Of a stretch of DNA of 10,708 nt, positions 1-10,413 are shown piece by piece. A model generated the notes under the pieces. The model had not been told where the DNA came from. It saw nothing but the letters and a program-made list of their open reading frames with translations, and searched no databases. Within the stretch, counting starts at the first letter, position 1. Every line of letters begins with the position of its first letter. The stretch comes from a virus. Taxonomy: Duplodnaviria > Heunggongvirae > Uroviricota > Caudoviricetes. Location: the IMG/VR virus record IMGVR_UViG_2690316105_000022; one strand, given 5' to 3'. A program made the position numbers and the translations under genes.

Positions 1-1539
1 TTATTCAGTCGGCAGTGCTACGCGCCAGGGGAGCAGTTCGCCGACCCGGTTTATCGGCCAGTCGGCTATGACGTCAAGGACATAGCGGAGGTAGCTTTCT
101 GGCTCCACTCCGTTCAGTTTGCACGTCCCGATCAGGCTGTACAGCAGCGCTCCCCGCTCTCCTCCATGATCCGAACCGAAGAACAGGTAGTTTTTGCGGC
201 CCAGACTGACCATCCGCAACGCATTTTCAGCGATGTTATTGTCCGCCTCAGCCCAGCCATCATCTGCATAGTACGTCAGCGCCGGCCACTGGTTCAGGGC
301 GTATGCGAACGCTTTCGCCAGTTCTGAGTGTCGCGACAGGGTTTTCATCTTTTCACGCAGCCAGCTTTCCAGGGATTTCAGCAGCGGTTTCGTTTTCAAC
401 TGACGTTCGGCAAGGCGCTGCTCCGCCGTCATTCCCCTTATCTCTGCCTCGATGGCGTACAGTTCGCCGATCCGTTTCAGCGCTTCCTCCGTCAGGGCTG
501 ACGGGGTGCGAACGTGCACATCGTGGATTTTACGGCGGGCGTGAGCCCAACAGGCGGCTTCCGTTATCCGGCCATCCCGGTACAGCTCGTTGAACCCGGC
601 GTATGCATCCGCCTGCAGTACACCACTGAACCCCGCAAGATGGGTCTGCGGATGGATGCCTTTTCTGTCCGGGCTGTAAGCGAACCACACCGCCGGCGCC
701 AGCGTTGACCCGGCGTTACGGTCGTCACGAACGTAGGTCCATAACCGCCCGGTCTTCGTTTTCTTATTGCCTGGCAACAGCACCGGGACAGGCGTGTCAT
801 CAGCATGGAGCTTACCGTCAGTCAGCACATAGTCCTGAAGCGCTTCTTCCAGCGGTGACAGTAGCCGGCAGCATGCATCCACCCAGCCCGACAGCAGTGA
901 ACGACTCAGCTCCACGCCCTGGCGGCCGTACATTTCAGACTGGCGGTACAGCGGGGTGTGCTCTGCATACTTTGAGATCAGCACGCGGGCCAGCAGCCCC
1001 GGTCCTGCGATACCCCGCTCGATGGGCCGTGAAGGCGCGGGGGCCTGCACGATGGCATCGCACTGAGTACAGGCATGCTTTTCACGTACAGTCCGGATAA
1101 CCCGGAAGGCGCTGCGCATCAGCTCCAGCTGTTCGGCGGCATCCTCACCCAGATAGCTCAGCGAGCCTCCACATTCCGGGCAGCATGACGCTGCCGGCAG
1201 CAGCCGTTTTTCATCGCGGGGGAGTGATTCGGGGAACGGTTTGCGGGTGCGGGTTTGACGCAGCGGGCGCTGCACGGCCGGGTCGTCAACCCGACCGGTA
1301 AGGGTATCACTTTCTTTCTGAAGTGCCTTCAGGTCAGCTTCCATCTGTGCGATACGACGGGAGACTTTTTCCGAGCGGCTGCCGAAGTTCATCCGGCGCA
1401 GCTTATCCAGCTGTGCCTGCAGATGGTCTATTTCGCGTTCACGCTCGTTCAGCTTTTCCTGCAGGGCACGGTTCAGCGCCTCCTGTTCGGCAAGGAGACG
1501 TTTCAGTGCATTGATATCGTCAGGAAGTGAGCTGCTCAT
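1..1539 (-). CDS. tnpC: IS66-family transposase TnpC (Orf3, DDE-type)
   Basis: 512-aa ORF with N-terminal coiled-coil/leucine-zipper-like region, a Cys-rich CCPECGG...CTQCD zinc-finger-like motif and a long catalytic region typical of IS66 Orf3 transposases; follows tnpB after a 48-nt gap. Confidence 0.9.
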
Positions 1540-1587
1540 ACCGGGTATATTACCAGGCTCATTCAGCGTCGACCAGGATAAAGAGGC

Positions 1588-1935
1588 TTACAACATAGTC
1601 AGGGACGTAAGCAGTCTTTTAGGCTGCCGCCAGTCGATACCTTCCAGCAGCATCGCCAGCTGTGCCGGTGTGAGGAACACTTTGCCATCCCGGGCTGACG
1701 GCCAGGCGAAGCGGCCGCGCTCCAGCCGTTTGGTCAGCAGACACAGTCCATCGCCGGTAGACCAGAGGAGCTTTACCTGACTGCCATTACGCCCACGGAA
1801 GATAAAAACGTGACCTGACATCGGATCGTCTTTCAGCGTCGTCTGCACCTTTGCCGCCAGGCCGTTGAAGCCGTTTCTCATATCGGTGATGCCAGCGACC
1901 AGCCAGATCTTTGTCCCTGAGGGTAATGGGATCAA
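1588..1935 (-). CDS. tnpB: IS66-family accessory protein TnpB (Orf2)
   Basis: 115-aa ORF (MIPLPSGTKIWLVAG...DMRNGFNGLAA...) matching the size and conserved N-terminal motif of IS66 Orf2; overlaps tnpA by 4 nt (ATGA). Confidence 0.88.
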   Translation of the reverse strand: MIPLPSGTKIWLVAGITDMRNGFNGLAAKVQTTLKDDPMSGHVFIFRGRNGSQVKLLWSTGDGLCLLTKRLERGRFAWPSARDGKVFLTPAQLAMLLEGIDWRQPKRLLTSLTML

Positions 1936-2336
1936 CGTTTGAGCTCCCGTATCAGCAGGTTCAGGATATTTTCGCTGATGGCACCATTCAGACGGAGTGA
2001 TCCGTGCCGGAACGTCACTTCACAGCTGATATTGAGTGATTCAGGTGTCGCAGCAGCTACAGGTTGTGACCGGGGGGAGGTTGTAGGGACAACATCTTCG
2101 GTATCAAGTGTTATCGGGAGCAGCTCAGGCACGTTGTTTTCTGTTGTTGAAGGAGGACGTAGTTTTCCTTCGCGCCAGTACTGGCGCCACTTGAACAGCA
2201 AATTATCGTTGATCCCATGCTCACGAGCGAGTTGCGCTACGGAGATCTCTGGTCGATGCGAGAGTTCAACCATTTTGATTTTGAACTCAACGGGATAATT
2301 AGGGCTTTTTTTACGCACTGCGGTTAATGATTTCAT
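1932..2336 (-). CDS. tnpA: IS66-family TnpA (Orf1, helix-turn-helix protein)
   Basis: 134-aa ORF first in the IS66 three-gene arrangement; the ISVAQLAREHGINDNLLFKWRQ segment looks like an HTH DNA-binding motif. Confidence 0.85.
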   Translation of the reverse strand: MKSLTAVRKKSPNYPVEFKIKMVELSHRPEISVAQLAREHGINDNLLFKWRQYWREGKLRPPSTTENNVPELLPITLDTEDVVPTTSPRSQPVAAATPESLNISCEVTFRHGSLRLNGAISENILNLLIRELKR

Positions 2337-2389
2337 GGATAGCGTCCACCATATTTGGTGTCCACTATTCTCTCAGGAATTTCAGGATC

Positions 2390-2417
2390 TGCCAGACGGT
2401 GCTGAGACGACGCTTAC
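2390..2417. repeat. Proximal terminal inverted repeat of the IS66-family element
   Basis: Minus-strand reading from 2417 inward gives GTAAGCGTCGTCTCAGCACCGTCTGGCA, beginning with the GTAAGCG motif recalled for IS66-family termini. The exact inner boundary is uncertain because the partner repeat is outside the window. Confidence 0.55.
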
Positions 2418-2734: not shown

Positions 2735-3145
2735 ATGACAGCACAAATTGCAGCTTACGGGCGGCTGGTGGACGACCCGCAGGTAAAACAGACCAGCAAG
2801 GGCACACCGATGACGCTGGCGCGTATGGCGGTATCGTTGCCATGCAGTCAGGCGCAGGACGGGCAGGCTACGTTATGGCTGTCGGTCCTGGCATTTGGCA
2901 AACAGGCCGACCAACTGGCAGGACATGAGAAAGGCAACGTAATCAGCGTATCCGGCGTGATGCAGGTCAGTCAGTGGACAGGACAGGACGGGGGGACGCG
3001 TCAGGGTTATCAGATTATTGCCGACAGCGTAATCAGTGCGAAAACGGTGAGACCAGGCGGCAGCAGACGCAAAACCACAGGCACACAGGGTAATCAGCCA
3101 CCAGCGGGAGGCGATGACCCTTACGGTGATGATATTCCGTTCTGA
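2735..3145 (+). CDS. ssb: Single-stranded DNA-binding protein (SSB-like)
   Basis: 136-aa ORF whose pattern (G.L..DP.V....G......A....W..V..FGK.A....KG..V...G.....WT.Q.G..R) aligns by eye to the E. coli SSB OB-fold, followed by a Gly/Pro/Gln-rich linker and a C-terminal acidic tip DDPYGDDIPF resembling the canonical SSB DDDIPF tail. RBS GAGGTGG lies 5-11 nt upstream of the ATG. Confidence 0.8.
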   Translation: MTAQIAAYGRLVDDPQVKQTSKGTPMTLARMAVSLPCSQAQDGQATLWLSVLAFGKQADQLAGHEKGNVISVSGVMQVSQWTGQDGGTRQGYQIIADSVISAKTVRPGGSRRKTTGTQGNQPPAGGDDPYGDDIPF

Positions 3146-3155
3146 GGGGGTGACG

Positions 3156-3428
3156 ATGGTACATGACCGCATAGCGGAAGAACTCGAAGCGAAAGGATTT
3201 TACCGGAGGGCGGCGGCGCGATGGGGTGAAGTTATGATGCTGGTGGAGACAGACAAGGAACGGCATCACATCACGATGCGACGGCTGGAATGTTCCAGGA
3301 AGGCACAGAGGCCACCGGAGACGGCGGATAATTACGGAGACCTGAAAAAGGCAGTCGATCGCACTTATGCCGAAATGGGGATAGATGGCGCTGGTGATGA
3401 AATATGGCGCAATTACCAGGACAGCTAA
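3156..3428 (+). CDS. Small transcriptional regulator, PerC-family-like (assignment from motif memory)
   Basis: 90-aa ORF starting MVHDRIAEELEAKGFYRRAAARW, resembling the A.ELE..GLWRRAA.RW signature I recall for PerC/Pch-type activators. RBS GAGGGGG is 6 nt upstream of the ATG at 3156; the start region overlaps the ssb stop. Followed by a terminator. Confidence 0.5.
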   Translation: MVHDRIAEELEAKGFYRRAAARWGEVMMLVETDKERHHITMRRLECSRKAQRPPETADNYGDLKKAVDRTYAEMGIDGAGDEIWRNYQDS

Positions 3429-3434
3429 TCACAC

Positions 3435-3458
3435 AGCCGGAGAAATCCGGCTTTTTTT
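3435..3458 (+). terminator. Rho-independent terminator after the PerC-like gene
   Basis: Perfect 7-bp stem AGCCGGA / TCCGGCT with GAAA tetraloop, followed by TTTTTT. Confidence 0.7.
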
Positions 3459-3553
3459 GCGCCAGTTGAAACGGTATGGCGCATTACCGGCTTTTCGTCA
3501 CGGTCCGGCATAGTTACTATCTGAAACAAACAGACACAACAGAGGAAAAAACA

Positions 3554-3778
3554 ATGCCGATGAAATTTGATGAGATATTAAAACAGCGTGATAAATACCA
3601 TGCTGACAACATGGAGACGATGAACATCAATGATTACCGCGCATTCCTGGAAACGGGCGCGCTAATCGAAAAGGATCGGCATGGATTTGTCAGATGTGCG
3701 CTATCCGGTGAAATGCTGGCAGTAAATCCTGAACAGATAGATGCATTGATAGAATTTCTGAAAGGGATCAGGGACTGA
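3554..3778 (+). CDS. Hypothetical small protein (74 aa), insulated cassette
   Basis: ORF starting MPMKFDEILKQ with a good RBS AGAGGA 7 nt upstream of the ATG at 3554. The 5' extension back to 3476 given by the ORF track is unlikely because it starts right after the preceding terminator. No recognisable family. Confidence 0.6.
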   Translation: MPMKFDEILKQRDKYHADNMETMNINDYRAFLETGALIEKDRHGFVRCALSGEMLAVNPEQIDALIEFLKGIRD

Positions 3779-3788
3779 GCACCCATAC

Positions 3789-3820
3789 AGCCGGAGCAAT
3801 CCGGCTTTTTGTTATTTTTT
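3789..3820 (+). terminator. Rho-independent terminator after the small ORF, near-duplicate of the terminator at 3435
   Basis: Stem AGCCGGA / TCCGGCT with GCAA tetraloop, followed by TTTTTGTTATTTTTT. The core ACAGCCGGAG[A/C]AATCCGGCTTTTT is shared with the terminator at 3431-3457. Confidence 0.7.
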
Positions 3821-3829
3821 GTAAATTAT

Positions 3830-3877
3830 TTGTTCGTGGTTGTTCCACGTTGTTCACTGAGCGGATCGGCATATTTT
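3830..3877 (+). promoter_or_regulatory. Phased TTGTTC triple direct repeat with possible sigma70-like promoter for the capsid operon
   Basis: TTGTTC occurs at 3830, 3840 and 3850, exactly 10 bp apart (TTGTTCgtggTTGTTCcacgTTGTTCactg). The third copy could serve as a -35 element, with TATTTT at 3872-3877 as a -10 after a 16-nt spacer. No transcription start data. Confidence 0.3.
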
Positions 3878-3931
3878 ACCCGAACTGAATCATGATTATT
3901 CTCGCCAGTGGTGCCAGGACGCTGGGGCCAC

Positions 3932-3979
3932 TTTCCCGCCTGTTAATGTGCTCACCAATATTCATTACCAGGCGGGAAA
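3932..3979. repeat. Long imperfect palindrome (17-bp arms, 14-nt spacer) in the capsid leader
   Basis: Left arm TTTCCCGCCTGTTAATG (3932-3948) and right arm CATTACCAGGCGGGAAA (3963-3979) are reverse complements with one mismatch. Confidence 0.6.
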
Positions 3980-4032
3980 ACGATCGGTGCGATTGCTGAT
4001 TTCCTTATGAAAAACGGTTGAGTTTTTACCGC

Positions 4033-4070
4033 GTCCTGGAGTTCCTTACTTAACCCCAGGACTTTTTTTT
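4033..4070 (+). terminator. Terminator-like hairpin plus T8 tract immediately abutting the capsid start codon
   Basis: Stem GTCCTGG (4033-4039) / CCAGGAC (4056-4062) with a 16-nt loop, followed by TTTTTTTT (4063-4070); the capsid ATG begins at 4071. The loop is long for an efficient intrinsic terminator, so function is uncertain. Confidence 0.4.
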
Positions 4071-5228
4071 ATGCCGAGAATAATCGAATTACGCCAGCAG
4101 AAAACCGCCATTAAAAATCAGATGCGCGACATGCTGGAGAACGCGGAAAAAGAAAACCGCAGCCTTAACGATGCAGAGGGCGCAAAATTTGACGAATTAC
4201 GCGCTAAAGCTGAATCCCTCGATAAAGACATTTCCCGCCTTGAAGCCATTGCAGACGAAGAGCGCAGCAAGCCAGGTAAAAGCAGCCAGACCACTGACCA
4301 GGCAGAACTCCGAAACTACATCCTGACAGGTGAAACCCGTGCATTAAGTACAGGTGTCCCCGCTGATGGTGGTTATACCGTTATCCCTGAACTGAACACC
4401 GAAATCATGCGAATACTGGCGGATGAGTCCACCATGCGCCGCATCTGTACCGTGAAAAAAATCAGCAGCAACGAGTTTAAGCAGCTTGTTTCCGCTGGCG
4501 GTGCGACCGTTAACCTCGGTGAAGAGGGTAAGGCACGCGAACAGACCAGCACCCCGCAGATTAACGAGGTGAGCATCAAGCTGTATCCGGTCTATGCGTA
4601 CCCGCGCACCACGCAGGAAATCGTGGATTTTTCCGATGTGGACATCCTTTCATGGCTGACGGGCGAGATTGGCGACACCTTCACGGAAACCGAAGAAAGC
4701 GATCTGGTTGTGGGCGACGGTGACAAAAAAGCAAAAGGCTTTTTATCCGTACCCCGTGCAGAGAAGAACGACAAAGAACGTGATTTTGGTACGTTGCAGG
4801 TAATTAAGCCTTCTGAGTCTCTTGCGTGGACATCTGCGGACCCGCTGATCGATCTGAAATTTGCATTACGTAAAAAATACCGCAAGAACGCGGTATGGGT
4901 GGTTAACTCCACGACGGCGGCAAAACTCCAGAAGGTGAAGAATGCGAACGGGGATTATATATGGCGTGACCGTTTACAGGCGGGTGATCCTGACACATTG
5001 CTGGGCCTTCCGGTCGAATATCTGGAGTTTATGCCGGATAACGTTATTGCCCTGGGTGACTTCAAACGCGGTTACTACATTGTTGATCACGAAACGGGTG
5101 TTCGCACCAGACCGGACAACCTGACAGAACCAGGATTCATCAAAATTTTCACGCAGAAATATTTAGGCGGTGGCGTGGTGGATTCGAACGCGATCAAGAT
5201 TCTGGAACTGCCACAGGACGACGATTAA
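4071..5228 (+). CDS. Major capsid protein, HK97-fold family, with N-terminal coiled-coil (delta/scaffolding-like) domain
   Basis: 385-aa ORF. The first ~70 residues are a charged, coiled-coil-like region (ELRQQKTAIKNQMRDMLENAEKENRSLNDAEGAKFDELRAKAESLDKDISRLEAIADEE) typical of HK97-type delta domains; the remainder has the size and motif feel of HK97-family capsid proteins. Sits directly upstream of a prohead protease and portal. Confidence 0.88.
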   Translation: MPRIIELRQQKTAIKNQMRDMLENAEKENRSLNDAEGAKFDELRAKAESLDKDISRLEAIADEERSKPGKSSQTTDQAELRNYILTGETRALSTGVPADGGYTVIPELNTEIMRILADESTMRRICTVKKISSNEFKQLVSAGGATVNLGEEGKAREQTSTPQINEVSIKLYPVYAYPRTTQEIVDFSDVDILSWLTGEIGDTFTETEESDLVVGDGDKKAKGFLSVPRAEKNDKERDFGTLQVIKPSESLAWTSADPLIDLKFALRKKYRKNAVWVVNSTTAAKLQKVKNANGDYIWRDRLQAGDPDTLLGLPVEYLEFMPDNVIALGDFKRGYYIVDHETGVRTRPDNLTEPGFIKIFTQKYLGGGVVDSNAIKILELPQDDD

Positions 5229-5238
5229 CAGCATACAG

Positions 5239-5269
5239 AAGGGGCTAAAAAGCCCCTTTAGTGTTTTAT
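5239..5269 (+). terminator. Hairpin with interrupted T tract after the capsid gene (possible partial terminator)
   Basis: 8-bp stem AAGGGGCT / AGCCCCTT with AAAA loop (5239-5258), followed by TAGTGTTTT. Confidence 0.45.
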
Positions 5270-5283
5270 GGGTGAAAAAAATT

Positions 5284-5841
5284 ATGAAGAGTATGGAAAT
5301 CCGGTCATCGGAAATCACCACCAGCGCCAGCAACACGCTGACGGGTTACGTTGTTCGCTGGAATAACCTTTCTGATCTGCTATGGGGTGAGTTTTACGAA
5401 AAATTTCAGCGGGGGGCGTTTACTGAGTGGCTTGCGGCGGGTAATGACGTTCGCGGCCTGTATGAGCATGACCACAGCATGTTACTGGGGCGCACCCGTT
5501 CCGGATCGCTGAAACTGGAAGAGGACGACACAGGGTTACGCTTTGAACTGACGCCACCGGATACCAGTACAGGGCGGGACGTTATCGAACTGGTTAAGCG
5601 TGGTGATATATCCGGCATGAGCTTTGGCTTTCGTTCCCGTAAGGATGTATGGGATACCACAACAGATCCATGCGTGCGCACTGTGCTGGTTGCGGAACTG
5701 TACGAAATTACCGTCACATCCGTACCGGCTTACCCTGATTCCGGCGTGGAGCTGGCCCGCCGTTCCCTGTACGAGCAGCACCCCGAAAAAATGCCGCGTG
5801 CGGATAATCGCCGCTGGTGGGCGGATTTAGCGGGGGTGTGA
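5284..5841 (+). CDS. Prohead maturation protease, HK97 family (S78/U35-like)
   Basis: The ORF contains LTGYVVRWN...GAF...DVRGLYEHDHSMLLGRTRSGSLKLEEDDTGLRFEL..P.T..GRDVIELVKRGDISGMSFGFR...TVPAYPDSGVEL, closely resembling HK97-type prohead protease motifs as I recall them. Start chosen at the ATG at 5284, downstream of the capsid stop; the track's 5170 start would overlap the capsid gene. Confidence 0.82.
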   Translation: MKSMEIRSSEITTSASNTLTGYVVRWNNLSDLLWGEFYEKFQRGAFTEWLAAGNDVRGLYEHDHSMLLGRTRSGSLKLEEDDTGLRFELTPPDTSTGRDVIELVKRGDISGMSFGFRSRKDVWDTTTDPCVRTVLVAELYEITVTSVPAYPDSGVELARRSLYEQHPEKMPRADNRRWWADLAGV

Positions 5842-5842
5842 T

Positions 5843-7054
5843 ATGTGGCCTTTCAGAAGAAAAAAAGAGCAGCGCAGCATGACGCTTGATGAATTTATGG
5901 CGCTGGCTGGCACATCGAACACGGGGGCGGGTGAGTACGTATCATCGGGGACAGCGGAATCACTCCCCGCCGTCATGAACGCCGTCACGGTCATCTCTGA
6001 GGCGGTGGCTACTATGCCATGCTACCTGTACCTGGTACGCAATGAGAAGGGGAAGGAGGCCCGCGAGTGGCTTGATTCTCATCCGGTCGATCATATCCTC
6101 AACGAGCGCCCGAACGCATGGCAAACCCCCTACCAGTTTAAGCGAATGATGATCCGCCACTGCCTGTTAAACGGTAATGCTTACGCGGTGATTCAGTGGG
6201 GGCGTGATGGTTTTCCGGCGGCTTTACATCCTTACCCGCCGCAGTCGGTGAACGTGGAGCAGACAGGAGAACACAACTGGCGCTATTGCATCACTGACGC
6301 CTACACCGGAAACACCCGCAACTATTTACCGTGGGAAGTACTTCACCTTCGTTACTCCACGGATGACGGCTTTATGGGGCGCTCACCTGTAACCATCTGC
6401 CGCGAATCGCTGGGGCTTGGGCTGGCCCAACAACGCCACGGCGCGAGCGTGATGCGTGATGGCATGATGGCGGCAGGGGTTATCACGTCAGGCGAATGGC
6501 TGGACGGCGTGAAGGGCAAACAGGCATTAGCCGCACTGGAACGCTATAAAGGGGCCAAAAACGCCGGAAAAACGCCCATCCTTGAAGGGGGCATGAGTTA
6601 CCAGCAGCTGGGCATGAGTAACCAGGACGCCGAATGGCTGGCCTCCCGTCGCTTCACCATTGAAGACATCGCCCGAATGTTCAACGTCTCGCCGATTTTT
6701 CTGCAGGAATACAGCAACAGCACCTACAGCAATTTCAGCGAGGCAAGCCGCGCATTTCTCACCATGACGATGCGCCCGTGGCTGGCGAACTTTGAGCAGC
6801 AGATAAAAAACGCCTTGCTGGTGGTCTCGCCTGTACCTGGTATCCGGTATCAGGTGGAGTTTGACAGCGCGGACCTGTTACGGGCCACACCTGGCGAACG
6901 CTTTGCCACCTATGAGCGAGGCATCAAATCCGGTGTTATGTGCCCGAACGAAGCCCGCGAACGAGAAGGGTTGTCTCCGCGTGATGGTGGTGATGAGTTC
7001 AGCCAGGCATGGAAACAGGAAGTAAAAATCAGCGAGGGAGAAAAACCGGAATGA
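5843..7054 (+). CDS. Portal protein, HK97 family
   Basis: 403-aa ORF of portal size and character lying between the protease and head-completion genes. RBS-like GGGGG is 6 nt upstream; the start is 2 nt after the protease stop. Confidence 0.85.
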   Translation: MWPFRRKKEQRSMTLDEFMALAGTSNTGAGEYVSSGTAESLPAVMNAVTVISEAVATMPCYLYLVRNEKGKEAREWLDSHPVDHILNERPNAWQTPYQFKRMMIRHCLLNGNAYAVIQWGRDGFPAALHPYPPQSVNVEQTGEHNWRYCITDAYTGNTRNYLPWEVLHLRYSTDDGFMGRSPVTICRESLGLGLAQQRHGASVMRDGMMAAGVITSGEWLDGVKGKQALAALERYKGAKNAGKTPILEGGMSYQQLGMSNQDAEWLASRRFTIEDIARMFNVSPIFLQEYSNSTYSNFSEASRAFLTMTMRPWLANFEQQIKNALLVVSPVPGIRYQVEFDSADLLRATPGERFATYERGIKSGVMCPNEAREREGLSPRDGGDEFSQAWKQEVKISEGEKPE

Positions 7055-7389
7055 ACATAGGGCGACTGCGTGACAGGGTAACGATTCAGACCCTGAAACA
7101 GACCAGAGCCATGACGGGCGAAATACTCGAAACGTGGGAGGACGGTCACACACTCTGGGCAAGCGTGAACATGGTCAGCAGCAAGGAGTCCATTTCATCG
7201 GGTGCAGAGCTGGCGATTGGTACCGTAAGGATCTGGATACGGTACCGGAAGGACATTAACGCCACCAGCCGGATAAAGGTCAATACGGGGCCGCTGGCGG
7301 GGCGTGTACTGAATATCATCGGGCAGCCGCTGCCGGATGCCGCCAGGACACGCCTTGAAATTCTTTGTCGTGAGGGCGCGGAAAAATGA
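7051..7389 (+). CDS. Head-tail adaptor / head closure protein (Phage_H_T_join-like)
   Basis: 112-aa ORF starting MNIGRLRDRVTIQ with W...LWASV and IWIRYRKDI...RI motifs typical of head closure proteins. The ATG at 7051 overlaps the portal stop (ATGA), suggesting translational coupling. Confidence 0.7.
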   Translation: MNIGRLRDRVTIQTLKQTRAMTGEILETWEDGHTLWASVNMVSSKESISSGAELAIGTVRIWIRYRKDINATSRIKVNTGPLAGRVLNIIGQPLPDAARTRLEILCREGAEK

Positions 7390-7682
7390 CAGAAGAACTT
7401 ATCACCCTGGAAGAAGTGAAACTCCATTGCCGCATCGATGGCGACGAGGAAGACCAGTTAATCAGCGGATACATTGCCGCATCGCTTGAGGCGTGCCAGA
7501 TACACATAGGCAGGCGCTTTGATGACGGGCTGGAGTTCACGCCAGCCATAAAGATTGGCTGCATGATGTTTATCGCTCACCTGTATGAGAATCGCCAGAT
7601 TGTCGCGGATAACGCAAAAACACACGTACCCATGACGATTGGCGCACTCTGGACGGCTTACCGTGATGTGGGGGTGTACTGA
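7386..7682 (+). CDS. gp6-like head-tail connector protein
   Basis: 98-aa ORF starting MTEELITLEEVKLHCRIDGDEEDQLISGYIAASLEA, matching the I.LEE.K.HLRID.D.ED.LI...I.AA pattern of gp6-like connector proteins. Start overlaps the preceding stop (ATGA). Confidence 0.7.
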   Translation: MTEELITLEEVKLHCRIDGDEEDQLISGYIAASLEACQIHIGRRFDDGLEFTPAIKIGCMMFIAHLYENRQIVADNAKTHVPMTIGALWTAYRDVGVY

Positions 7683-8122
7683 TGCCGTGGCAACCATTAA
7701 GACGATGTACAGAACCAGGCTGCAACAGGCGCGTGAAGTCCGGCAAGTGTGAGGAGCACAGACGCAGCGCACGCCAGCAGCAGGACAGCCGGAGAGGCAG
7801 CAGCAGGGAGCGAGGGTATACGAGGCAGTGGGAGAAATACCGCGCCATGTATCTGAGTAAAAACCCGTTATGTGCGCATTGCCTGGAAAAAGGAATATAC
7901 ACGCCCGCCGTGGTGGTGGATCACATTATCCCAATCGATGGCGGTAATGATGTTCTCTTCTGGCCTGAGTGGAATCATCAGCCATTGTGCCAGGCGTGTC
8001 ATAACCAGAAAACGAAATGGCTTGATCCGTCCACAAAAAACAAGCGTGCTGCGGGTGGATTCCGTGAGGAGGAAGAACGGGCCGCTAACCGCAATAACTG
8101 GATGTATGGCGCTGATGAATGA
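7682..8122 (+). CDS. HNH endonuclease (terminase-associated type)
   Basis: 146-aa ORF with paired Cys motifs (CTEPGC, CAHC, CQAC) and an HNH core VDHIIPIDGGND...WNHQPLCQACHNQKT, located immediately upstream of terS/terL. Start overlaps the preceding stop (TGATG). Confidence 0.88.
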   Translation: MPWQPLRRCTEPGCNRRVKSGKCEEHRRSARQQQDSRRGSSRERGYTRQWEKYRAMYLSKNPLCAHCLEKGIYTPAVVVDHIIPIDGGNDVLFWPEWNHQPLCQACHNQKTKWLDPSTKNKRAAGGFREEEERAANRNNWMYGADE

Positions 8123-8288
8123 GCGGGAACAAAACCGCCTTATCCGTGGACTTATAAGGCAGCGTGACGCATGGAAGGCACAGGAAACAGGGCATAAAGA
8201 TAAAGCATCAGGACGCGCAGAACGCATCACAGCGACGCGATTAAACGACCGTGACCGCGAGGTTATGGAATGTTTCCGCAATCGCTGA
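8115..8288 (+). CDS. Hypothetical small basic protein (57 aa), uncertain
   Basis: ATG at 8115 overlaps the HNH stop (ATGAATGA) and the ORF runs to a TGA at 8286-8288; an alternative ATG lies at 8106. It fills the otherwise non-coding gap between HNH and the GC-rich intergenic region. No strong RBS and no recognisable family. Confidence 0.3.
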   Translation: MNEREQNRLIRGLIRQRDAWKAQETGHKDKASGRAERITATRLNDRDREVMECFRNR

Positions 8289-8411
8289 TGAGGCAGCCGG
8301 ACGGGGTGGGGGGAGTTTTCAGGACGAACCCGACCCCGCCCAGAACCGAACGCCTCCCCAAATTTTTATGCACGGTAATTTTTTGAAAAATAATCTGGCG
8401 AAAAAATAAGC
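8289..8411. other. Candidate cos / packaging-recognition region upstream of terS
   Basis: GC-rich block with G-runs and complementary C-runs (CGGGGTGGGGGGAG at 8302-8315; CCCGACCCCGCCC at 8329-8341; CGCCTCCCC at 8351-8359), followed by an AT-rich segment (AAATTTTTATGCACGGTAATTTTTTGAAAAATAATCTGGCGAAAAAATAAG) ending at the terS start. Position between HNH and terS is where cos sites sit in HK97-like cos phages. Confidence 0.3.
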
Positions 8412-8768
8412 ATGGCAAGACCACCGAAAGCCCCCGCCTACCTGGATGATATCGCCGTGAAGCAGTGGCGGGAAAAATCGCGGCAGCTTGCGGAACGGGG
8501 AGACCTGACCCCTGCCGACTGGAGTAATCTGGAACTGTATTGCGTCAATTACTCGATATACAGGAAAGCCGTCGCAGACCTTGCGGCGCGCGGGTTCAGC
8601 ATTGTTAACAGTCAGGGCGGAGAGAGCAGAAACCCCGCATTAAGCGCGAAATCCGACGCGGAAAGAGTGATGATAAAAATGGCCTCTTTGCTCGGTTTTG
8701 ACCCGATAAGCCGCCGTAAAAATCCACCGGAAACAGAAGAAGAGGACGAGCTTGACCGCCTGGAATAA
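8412..8768 (+). CDS. terS: Terminase small subunit, P27 family-like
   Basis: 118-aa ORF with the L..YC..Y......A.......G......G.......NP pattern and a C-terminal acidic tail, consistent with P27-family small terminases. Lies directly upstream of, and overlapping, the large terminase gene. Confidence 0.8.
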   Translation: MARPPKAPAYLDDIAVKQWREKSRQLAERGDLTPADWSNLELYCVNYSIYRKAVADLAARGFSIVNSQGGESRNPALSAKSDAERVMIKMASLLGFDPISRRKNPPETEEEDELDRLE

Positions 8769-10413
8769 GTACGCAGAAGACGTAAAAACGGGCAAAATTC
8801 CGGCCTGTAAACGGCTGAAACAGGCCGTTAAACGGTACTTTTCGGACCTTGAAAACCCCCTTTACATGTTCGATCGTGAGGTTGTTGAGCGGTTTATTGC
8901 CTTTCCCAGGGTGTGCCCGCACGTAAAAGGGCCGATGCGTGGAAGACCCATTGAGCTGGAACCGTGGCAGCAGTTTGCCTTTGCGTGCATCCTCGGCTTT
9001 AAGGTTAAGGCCACCGGAAGGCGCAAATACACGAGCGCCTTTATCGAAGTGCCGCGCAAAAATGCGAAATCCACGACAGCCGCGATTCTGGCTAACTGGT
9101 TTCTGATTATGGAGAACGGGCAGCAGGATATTTACACCGCAGCGGTGAGCCGCGACCAGGCGCGGATCGTTTTTGATGATGCGCGTCAGATGTGCCTTTT
9201 ATCCCGACCGTTACGCAAGAGAGTGAATATTCAGGCCCACAAGGTGATGCACCCGAAAAGCAACAGCCTGTTAAAGCCGCTGGCAGCAAAAGCGGCAACC
9301 ATCGAGGGTACTAACCCCAGCCTTGCCATTGTGGACGAATACCACTTACACCCCGATAACGGCGTTTATTCTGCGCTTGAACTGGGGATGGGGGCACGTC
9401 CCGAAGGGCTGTTATTTGCCATTACCACATCAGGCAGCAACGTCGTTTCAGCCTGTAAACAGCACTATGATTATTGCTGCCAGATCCTGGACGGCGAAGA
9501 GGTCAACGATTCAATTTTTGTACTGATTTACGAACTGGACGACGAAAACGAGGTTGATGATCCGGAGATGTGGATAAAGGCGAACCCTAATATTGATGTT
9601 TCCGTGGATCGTGAAAAACTGGCCTCAACCATCCAGAAAGCGCGGGGCATACCGTCGCAATGGGTGGAGATGATGACAAAGCGATTTAATATCTGGTGTC
9701 AGGGGGCTACCCCGTGGATGGGTAACGGAGCATGGGCTGAGTGCGCCGGAAAGTTCACGGAGGAAGATTTACACGGTCAGGAATGTTACGCGGGGCTGGA
9801 TTTATCATCCACAAGCGACATTTCCAGCGTGTGCTATGCCTTTCCGGTCGGTAAAAATATCATGCTGGTTTCCCGTCATTATCTGCCGGAGTTCCAGTTA
9901 CAGAACCCAGCCAATAAAAATCGCGCTATCTATCGCCAGTGGGCACGGGCGGGATGGATACGCACAACGCCAGGGGACTGCATTGATTACGACCGGATAC
10001 GTGATGACATCATGCAGGACGCGGAAAAATTTAATATCAGGCTGGTGGGCTTCGATACGTGGAACGCAACGCATCTCAGGACGCAATTACAGGGGGCAGG
10101 CTTTGAGGTGGAGCCGTTCCCGCAAACCTACCTTCGATTCAGTCCGGCGGCGAAATCGTTCGAAGTTTTTGTTAACCGCAGGGTTATCGTGCATCGTGGT
10201 GATCCGGTGTTGTCCTGGTCGATGAGTAACGTCGTGATGCAGAGTGACGCGAACGCCAATATCAAGCCGAACAAGAAAAAATCACCGAACAAGATAGACC
10301 CGAGCGTGGCGGCACTGATGGCGTTTGGTACATTCCAGGCAGAGCATGAGGATTTTGCTTTTGATATAAGCGACAGCCACCGCCAAAAACTGGAAGAATT
10401 TAGCGGGGTGTAA
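8752..10413 (+). CDS. terL: Terminase large subunit (ATPase plus nuclease)
   Basis: 553-aa ORF with a Walker A-like motif (VPRKNAKSTTAAI), a Walker B-like LAIVDEYH segment and a C-terminal nuclease-like region. Overlaps the terS 3' end by 17 nt. Confidence 0.9.
   Translation: MTAWNKYAEDVKTGKIPACKRLKQAVKRYFSDLENPLYMFDREVVERFIAFPRVCPHVKGPMRGRPIELEPWQQFAFACILGFKVKATGRRKYTSAFIEVPRKNAKSTTAAILANWFLIMENGQQDIYTAAVSRDQARIVFDDARQMCLLSRPLRKRVNIQAHKVMHPKSNSLLKPLAAKAATIEGTNPSLAIVDEYHLHPDNGVYSALELGMGARPEGLLFAITTSGSNVVSACKQHYDYCCQILDGEEVNDSIFVLIYELDDENEVDDPEMWIKANPNIDVSVDREKLASTIQKARGIPSQWVEMMTKRFNIWCQGATPWMGNGAWAECAGKFTEEDLHGQECYAGLDLSSTSDISSVCYAFPVGKNIMLVSRHYLPEFQLQNPANKNRAIYRQWARAGWIRTTPGDCIDYDRIRDDIMQDAEKFNIRLVGFDTWNATHLRTQLQGAGFEVEPFPQTYLRFSPAAKSFEVFVNRRVIVHRGDPVLSWSMSNVVMQSDANANIKPNKKKSPNKIDPSVAALMAFGTFQAEHEDFAFDISDSHRQKLEEFSGV

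What the first reader, a model, noticed from the sequence alone, without database searches (positions are those of the whole stretch)
3435..3820. Small ORF bracketed by two near-identical terminators (moron-like cassette)
The 74-aa ORF at 3554-3778 has its own strong RBS and is flanked by terminators sharing the core ACAGCCGGAG[A/C]AATCCGGCTTTTT, both with GNRA tetraloops. Duplicated terminators around a single small gene suggest an autonomous, insulated transcription unit inserted between the regulatory gene and the structural operon, as seen for phage morons, which often encode host-interaction, defence or anti-defence functions.
Basis: partly seen in the sequence, partly recalled or inferred. 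Interest (0 to 1): 0.5.

Follow-up and report, generated by a model that had tools for sequence, protein, structure and literature searches.

The report
Optional small gene between duplicated terminators
A real 74-codon gene of unknown function lies between two copies of one terminator in an E. coli phage satellite, and because related satellites either carry it or have one terminator in its place it is an ordinary swappable accessory cassette, not a new kind of system.

Summary
A 27-nt direct repeat (25/27 identical, 354 nt apart) forms two canonical intrinsic terminators around a 74-aa ORF with a GAGG ribosome-binding site.

The window is not a phage. It is a capsid-forming phage-inducible chromosomal island (cf-PICI, EcCIEDL933 type) of E. 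coli, with an IS66 element inserted upstream.

- **Real gene:** pN/pS is 0.15. Homologues at 32-48% identity occur across Enterobacterales.
- **Function unknown:** it has no Pfam, NCBIfam, PADLOC or structural match (phrog_1957).
- **Optional:** 18 of 37 capsid-anchored E. coli cf-PICIs carry it. The others have exactly one terminator in its place. A second PICI backbone shows the same present/absent pattern.
- **Repeated recombination:** the single-terminator junctions are chimeric in at least three different ways, so recombination inside the repeat happened more than once.
- **Junction element:** the same terminator joins the replication/regulatory module to at least three packaging-module types.
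- **Against a classic moron:** no convincing promoter of its own was found. In other genera the family sits in the same slot without a matching terminator pair.

The moron-like reading is partly supported. The protein is most likely a dispensable protein-binding accessory factor. Interest is modest.

The parts
3156..3428 (+). PerC-family regulator gene, the upstream neighbour whose transcript T1 ends. The longest ORF starts at 3114; relatives are annotated from the position equivalent to about 3156.
   Evidence: Pfam PerC 5.8e-43. Annotated as a PerC family transcriptional regulator in relatives.
3430..3456 (+). Terminator copy T1. Hairpin 3435-3452 (AGCCGGA-GAAA-TCCGGCT) followed by T7. Left copy of the 27-nt direct repeat.
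3492..3520 (+). Weak sigma-70-like candidate promoter TTTTCG-17 nt-TACTAT. Both hexamers are unchanged in the E. coli allele sequences printed. Not detected by the scan. Inferred only.
   Evidence: Read. One search lists no promoter here.
3542..3545 (+). Ribosome-binding site GAGG, 8 nt before the ATG.
   Evidence: GGAGG and GGGGG sit at the same place in the divergent homologues.
3554..3778 (+). 74-aa acidic protein gene (phrog_1957 family, no Pfam). Predicted as three helices, a beta-hairpin and a C-terminal helix.
3784..3810 (+). Terminator copy T2. Hairpin 3789-3806 (AGCCGGA-GCAA-TCCGGCT) followed by TTTTTGTTATTTTTT. Right copy of the repeat, and the junction with the packaging module.
3811..4070 (+). 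Conserved leader of the capsid operon, the downstream neighbour. It is the same whether or not the cassette is present.

Best explanation
**What it is.** The window is an E. coli capsid-forming PICI, a phage satellite that makes its own small capsids and steals helper-phage tails. The terminator CAGCCGGAG[A/C]AATCCGGCTTTTT is the standard junction between the replication/regulatory module (ending in perC) and whichever packaging module follows. In this element the junction is present twice, with a 327-bp unit between the two copies: a 97-nt untranslated spacer, a 74-aa gene, and 5 nt before the second repeat copy.

**Shown.**
- The gene is real and under purifying selection.
- It is optional.
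- Its absence always leaves one terminator.
- The single terminators are chimeras of T1 and T2, with the switch point in at least three different places.

**Inferred.**
- The two repeat copies are the substrate for homologous recombination or slippage. That recombination deletes the cassette, or moves it in from a relative. This is why the cassette assorts independently of both flanking modules.
- T1 ends transcription coming from perC and T2 ends the small gene's transcript.
- The gene is expressed either from a weak promoter in the spacer or by read-through when the island is induced. In divergent relatives the homologue follows perC directly, with no terminator and apparently in the same transcript.
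- The protein is small, acidic and helical, has several invariant polar residues (D41, H43, E53, Q61) and no DNA-binding signature. It most likely works by binding another protein (helper or competitor phage, host, or island). It is an accessory factor, not a component needed for capsid formation or packaging.
For: **Identity of the element**
- The genes for capsid, S78 protease, portal, head completion, connector, HNH, TerS and TerL are all present.
- Synteny holds with islands flanked by an integrase and an AlpA gene in E. coli chromosomes.
- This matches the cf-PICI description.

**Repeat and terminators:**

**Presence or absence with one terminator left**
-.
- Capsid-anchored census: 18 of 37 E. 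coli loci carry the gene.
- The interior of the cassette is in 539 of 5426 complete E. coli genomes. The perC region is in 831.
- Two backbones each occur with and without it. Counts of terminator occurrences: cf leader 18 without and 15 with; lambda-like module 16 without and 18 with.

**Chimeric junctions:** three switch intervals are seen.

**Terminator as general junction:** it also follows a different upstream gene and precedes a third downstream module.

**Gene reality**
- pN/pS is 0.15, with 16 of 26 segregating sites at third codon positions.
- 207 clusters at E <= 0.001 in Enterobacterales.
- Nearly always upstream of, and co-oriented with, the capsid gene.

**Not structural or essential**
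- Identical packaging modules exist without it.
- The EcCIEDL933 capsid has no decoration protein.

**Ancestral co-transcription:** in L145 and L147, perC is followed by the homologue with no intervening terminator.
Against: - No promoter passes the scan threshold, and I have no expression data.
- The direction of events (deletion or gain) is not proven. The loop-base variants could partly be ordinary polymorphism shuffled by recombination in the flanks.
- The protein's mode of action rests only on composition, size and lack of matches. The confident AlphaFold model (pLDDT 90) finds nothing in PDB or BFVD.
- Conserved position next to the capsid operon across genera could mean a life-cycle role that is merely dispensable under some conditions.
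Confidence: 0.6

Rival explanations
1. It is a classic moron. It would be an autonomous unit with its own promoter, expressed from the integrated, uninduced island. Its protein would benefit the host, for example by phage defence, superinfection exclusion or anti-defence.
For: - Present or absent between the same two neighbours.
- A terminator on each side.
- Lower G+C and GC3 than its neighbours.
- The region just before the cf-PICI packaging operon is described as a variable region expected to carry immune systems. PICIs have a mid-island accessory region next to pri.
Against: - No promoter detected.
- No PADLOC match.
- No similarity to phi80 AtiEcA or TaiEcA, which are the positional analogues.
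- In other genera the variable cargo lies downstream of this gene. The gene itself stays in place, and it can be directly downstream of perC with no terminator.
Confidence: 0.22
2. It is a life-cycle gene of the island. It could be a regulator of the packaging operon or an assembly or packaging helper. It would be expressed on induction by read-through of T1, possibly AlpA-dependent antitermination as shown for P. aeruginosa AlpA.
For: - Conserved position and orientation immediately upstream of the capsid leader in about 100 loci from many genera.
- All island genes are co-oriented, and intrinsic terminators lie within the gene train.
- The island's AlpA belongs to Pfam Phage_AlpA.
- P. aeruginosa AlpA is a processive antiterminator.
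Against: - About half of E. coli, 30% of Klebsiella-type and 67% of Salmonella/Proteus-type cf-PICIs lack it. Some of these have unrelated small ORFs there.
- The E. coli allele also sits in front of a completely different packaging module.
- It is acidic, with no DNA-binding match.
- Antitermination by a PICI AlpA has not been tested in anything I read.
Confidence: 0.15
3. The ORF is not a gene. Only the duplicated terminator matters, for example as a double stop protecting the capsid operon.
For: It has no annotated function. RefSeq also calls an evidently spurious ORF across T1.
Against: - pN/pS is 0.15.
- Full-length homologues at 32-48% identity share invariant residues.
- The structure model is confident.
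- A good RBS is conserved.
Confidence: 0.02

Closest known systems
Phage morons (as defined for HK97/HK022-type lambdoid phages; recalled from my own knowledge of the literature)
   Same: An extra gene lies between two genes that are adjacent in relatives. A terminator follows it. Its base composition differs from the flanks. It is dispensable.
   Different: The host is a satellite, not a phage. No clear promoter of its own was found. The terminator is duplicated on both sides and is the island's general module junction. The gene family is old and keeps its position in these satellites across genera.
Accessory or immune hot spots of PICIs and cf-PICIs (variable regions before and after the packaging operon; mid-island region next to pri)
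   Same: Same location, between the replication/regulatory genes and the packaging operon. Same present/absent behaviour.
   Different: Described cargo consists of immune systems such as Tai. This protein matches no known defence model. In other genera the variable cargo lies downstream of it.
phi80 AtiEcA (orf64, 76 aa), the small counter-defence gene placed just before the packaging module next to taiEcA
   Same: Size, position before the packaging genes and co-orientation with them.
   Different: No sequence or profile similarity (hhalign probability 0.1%). No Tai or Ati homologue in any of the loci collected. In E. coli there is no adjacent partner gene.
EcCIEDL933, the prototype cf-PICI
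   Same: Same gene order and near-identical packaging genes. The O157:H7 islands carry the same cassette.
   Different: The window copy has an IS66 element upstream. The cassette gene is not discussed in the cf-PICI papers I read. By gene count it is about 1785, outside the mutated packaging module.

Membership tests
Moron (phage accessory transcription unit) | Gene present between two genes that are adjacent in close relatives | tested here: met
   perC-T-capsid leader in L001, L006 and 17 further capsid-anchored loci, against perC-T1-gene-T2-leader.
Moron (phage accessory transcription unit) | Own terminator downstream | tested here: met
   T2 hairpin plus T-run, -12.8 kcal/mol.
Moron (phage accessory transcription unit) | Own promoter upstream | tested here: inconclusive
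   The scan found none between 3457 and 3553. Only a 7/12 match, TTTTCG-17-TACTAT, seen by eye. Homologues in L145 and L147 abut perC without a terminator.
Moron (phage accessory transcription unit) | Base composition unlike the flanking genes | tested here: met
   ORF G+C 43.6% and GC3 48%, against 54-58% and 56-66% in neighbours.
Moron (phage accessory transcription unit) | Expressed from the repressed or integrated element | not testable with these tools
   Needs transcript mapping.
Capsid-forming PICI (cf-PICI) | Own capsid, protease, portal, head-tail connectors, HNH, TerS and TerL, and no tail genes | tested here: met
   Pfam and PHROG assignments for 4071-10413. No tail genes between terL and attR in the intact relatives.
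Capsid-forming PICI (cf-PICI) | PICI-type int, alpA and pri/rep module in the same island of about 15 kb | tested here: inconclusive
   Present in the syntenic relatives L001-L003. In the window itself this part is cut off by the IS66 element and the window edge.
Known anti-phage defence or counter-defence proteins | Match to a defence model (PADLOC) or to AtiEcA/TaiEcA | tested here: not met
   No PADLOC family at E <= 1. hhalign probability 0.1% to AtiEcA. No tblastn hit.
Intrinsic (Rho-independent) terminator | G+C-rich stem-loop immediately followed by a U-tract | tested here: met
   Both copies: 7-bp stem with 5 G-C pairs, GNRA loop, then T7 or T5GTT. Termination activity itself was not tested.

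The most novel reading that the evidence does not exclude
The phrog_1957 family is a previously unrecognised satellite effector. It would occupy a dedicated exchangeable slot just ahead of the cf-PICI packaging operon. Unrelated small genes (60-62 aa, phrog_7232) would be functional alternatives there. It would act on a helper or competitor phage or on a host target, for example by securing tail supply or blunting a host or prophage defence. The duplicated junction terminators would be the device that lets satellites swap these effectors.
Probability: 0.22. Interest if true: 0.6.

Novelty: new member of a known kind. Interest (0 to 1): 0.3.

Why it matters
cf-PICIs are a recently described and widespread way for DNA to move between enterobacteria. 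Their packaging genes are well studied, but the small genes at the module boundary are not.

This cassette is in about one in ten complete E. coli genomes, including O157:H7. Its family is in many Klebsiella, Salmonella, Citrobacter, Serratia and Proteus islands. It has no assigned function.

A shared terminator acting as the recombination joint explains how these islands mix modules and gain or lose small genes. It also gives a clean natural with/without contrast for testing what the protein does. The practical gain is modest unless the protein turns out to act on phages or on host defences.

Tried and rejected
- **Family searches for the 74-aa protein:** Pfam, NCBIfam and PADLOC gave no match. 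PHROGs gave only an unannotated family.
- **PDB by sequence profile:** only a sub-threshold hit to a winged-helix-like stretch of N.BspD6I, E = 0.04 with no significant domain. I did not rely on it.
- **Exhaustive phmmer:** found only family members plus one spurious repeat protein.
- **Phage genome collection:** no tblastn hit, so the family looks satellite-borne, not phage-borne.
- **phi80 Tai/Ati analogy:** no homology.
- **Rfam:** nothing in the window or around the cassette.
- **Does the duplication extend beyond the terminator into a shared promoter?** The in-register CGG..CGGCATA similarity (3501 and 3862) is no better than shuffles.
- **Papers naming the protein accessions or phrog_1957:** none.
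- **Mapping the published 'gene 1792':** by count from capsid = 1786 it is a different small ORF. No supplement was available.
- **Leader alignment across genera:** the multiple alignment was spoiled by one mis-extracted locus. Only the printed raw sequences were used.

Full report
**The observation**

ACAGCCGGAG[A/C]AATCCGGCTTTTT occurs twice in the window, at 3433-3456 and 3787-3810. None is expected by chance. With flanks the repeat is 27 nt, 25/27 identical, 354 nt apart.

Each copy is a 7-bp G+C-rich hairpin with a GNRA loop (GAAA, GCAA) and a T-run. The terminator scan lists both. They fold at -12.6 and -12.8 kcal/mol, z about -4.

Between them lies a 74-codon ORF (3554-3778) with GAGG 8 nt upstream. 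A longer 100-codon reading from 3476 is possible. Homologues from other genera all start at the 'MP' of the short form.

**The context**

The window is not a phage. It has three parts.
- Positions 1-2417 are an IS66-family element.
- Next come a 101-aa ORF, an SSB gene and a PerC-family regulator gene.
- After the cassette comes a complete head and packaging set: HK97-type capsid, S78 protease, portal, head completion, connector, HNH, TerS and TerL.

The same arrangement sits in E. coli chromosomes. It follows a tyrosine integrase, an AlpA-family gene and a primase or helicase, and it lies between host genes such as roxA and phoQ. That is the capsid-forming PICI described with EcCIEDL933 as prototype.

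**The gene is real**

Thirteen distinct E. coli alleles give pN/pS = 0.15. Sixteen of 26 segregating sites are at third codon positions.

A profile search finds 207 clusters at E <= 0.001 in Klebsiella, Raoultella, Citrobacter, Enterobacter, Serratia, Pectobacterium, Proteus, Arsenophonus and others. They are 32-48% identical to the query. P2, Y28, D41, H43, E53, Q61 and L69 are invariant.

AlphaFold gives a confident model (pLDDT 90): three helices, a beta-hairpin and a C-terminal helix.

The protein has no Pfam, NCBIfam or PADLOC match. It has no significant structural neighbour. It has no hit in the phage genome collection. PHROGs places it in phrog_1957, function unknown. By my own count from the sequence it carries 14 acidic and 10 basic residues.

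**The cassette is optional, and its absence leaves one terminator**

- In E. coli CE10 and LB858871, perC is followed by a single terminator and then the same capsid leader.
- Of 37 loci retrieved through the capsid protein (about 98-99% identical) with enough upstream sequence, 18 carry the gene and 19 do not.
- The cassette interior is in 539 of 5426 complete E. coli genomes, always full length. The perC region is in 831.
- A different island backbone behaves the same way. It has a lambda-like capsid, a decoration protein and TerS. It occurs with the cassette (18 terminator occurrences) and without it (16). The cf type shows 15 with and 18 without.

**The terminator is the module junction and the recombination site**

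The same element also follows a different upstream gene and precedes a third kind of downstream module. Homology between backbones ends right at it.

The single terminators of cassette-less islands are chimeras of T1 and T2, with different switch points.
- L006 has the T2-type bases already 5' of the stem.
- CE10 and L114 have the T1 5' flank with the T2 loop and 3' flank.
- L107 has the T1 5' flank and loop with the T2 3' flank.

Several independent exchanges inside the 27-nt repeat are the simplest reading. I cannot tell deletion from gain in each case. The wide and position-constant distribution of the family suggests that presence is old and loss is frequent.

**Why it is not a textbook moron**

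- In about 100 loci found through the protein, the homologue lies upstream of and co-oriented with the cf-PICI capsid gene. The gap is about 220 to 3000 bp and often holds variable, frequently reverse-strand cargo.
- Few of those loci show a terminator upstream of the gene. In those I inspected it was a different hairpin from the one downstream, so I saw no matching pair there.
- In L145 and L147, which came from the E. coli-capsid search, a divergent homologue follows perC directly with no terminator. It then has a different terminator and the same capsid leader.
- The family is present in 54 of 77 Klebsiella-type and 24 of 72 Salmonella/Proteus-type capsid-anchored loci.
- Islands without it often have unrelated small ORFs at the same distance from the capsid gene.
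- No promoter passes the scan between T1 and the ATG. The similarity beyond the terminators is not significant.

In favour of the moron reading, G+C is clearly lower than in the neighbours. The literature also describes this region as a variable one expected to hold immune systems.

**How it most likely works**

Shown:
- two canonical terminators;
- a selected protein-coding gene;
- presence/absence polymorphism with chimeric junctions.

Inferred:
- T1 stops transcription from perC and T2 stops the small gene's transcript.
- The repeat mediates loss and exchange of the cassette.
- The gene is transcribed from a weak promoter (TTTTCG-17-TACTAT, 3492-3520) or by read-through on induction.
- The protein is a dispensable protein-binding accessory factor.

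It is not a capsid component. The EcCIEDL933 capsid has no decoration protein, and identical packaging modules exist without the gene.

A speculative lead concerns read-through. The island's AlpA is in the Pfam family named for AlpA. P. aeruginosa AlpA is a processive antiterminator. That could explain intrinsic terminators inside a co-oriented gene train. Nothing I read tests this for PICIs.

**Comparison and verdict**

The closest concepts are phage morons and PICI accessory hot spots. The positional analogue AtiEcA of phi80 (76 aa, before the packaging module) is not homologous.

The finding is a real and tidy example of a known kind of thing, with an uncharacterised protein family. The 'moron-like' reading is partly supported. 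Defence or anti-defence remains a guess. Interest is modest (0.3).

Noticed in passing
window 1-2417: IS66-family element (tnpC 1-1539, tnpB 1588-1935, tnpA 1932-2336, all on the minus strand). Its end (GTAAGCG..., read on the minus strand) is at 2417. Homology to the intact relative resumes at 2418, 2 nt before the ATG of the 101-aa ORF. This copy of the island is therefore separated from its int/alpA/rep part and may be transcriptionally or functionally crippled.
   Followed up: partly
window 3811-4085: The capsid leader is conserved with or without the cassette and is heavily structured. It has a 17-bp-arm hairpin at 3932-3979 (-23.5 kcal/mol). It has a hairpin at 4033-4062 plus U8 ending right at the capsid ATG at 4071 (-14.1 kcal/mol). 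It has a 14-nt complement between 3894-3907 and 4072-4085 covering the first codons. cf-PICIs of other genera have a different hairpin (GGTTTC...GAAACC) in the same place. This suggests regulated termination or translation of the capsid operon.
   Followed up: partly
loci L193, L237, L252, L302, L164, L186 (about 220-240 nt, or further, upstream of the capsid gene): cf-PICIs lacking the 74-aa family carry unrelated small forward ORFs in the same slot. These are 60-62 aa (weak phrog_33538 match) or 111-114 aa (phrog_7232). A reverse-strand cargo gene (for example phrog_5789, 170 aa) often follows. All are of unknown function.
   Followed up: partly
window 3385-3513: RefSeq relatives annotate a 42-aa 'hypothetical protein', or a frameshifted 'trigger factor' pseudogene, that runs straight across terminator T1. 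It looks like a spurious call.
   Followed up: no
window about 8106-8288 (between the HNH and terS genes): A roughly 60-aa ORF is annotated in relatives. Counting from capsid = gene 1786, it is probably the 'hypothetical gene 1792' whose mutation severely lowers EcCIEDL933 transfer. It is not the cassette gene.
   Followed up: partly
L007 (CP018459.1, 16,971 bp) and L008 (NZ_CP038627.1, 15,977 bp): Small circular 'plasmids' of Klebsiella pneumoniae and Arsenophonus nasoniae carry the cf-PICI packaging set plus a homologue of the 74-aa gene. The Arsenophonus one also has a plasmid-type replication initiator and a toxin-antitoxin pair, and its small gene lies after terL, not before the capsid gene. 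They look like episomal or plasmid-borne satellites.
   Followed up: no
window 3114-3428: The PerC-family gene overlaps the end of the SSB gene if read from 3114. It also gives a sub-threshold match to the ANR family of negative regulators. Published work reports that PerC-like genes of EcCIEDL933 and EcCICFT073 did not affect LEE1 fusions, whereas another PICI's PerC-like protein represses LEE.
   Followed up: no
L360 and L375 (IMG/VR contigs): The identical 23-nt terminator sequence also turns up in two contigs whose flanks matched none of the reference segments (perC, cassette, capsid leader). It is presumably an independent occurrence of a simple GNRA-loop hairpin.
   Followed up: no
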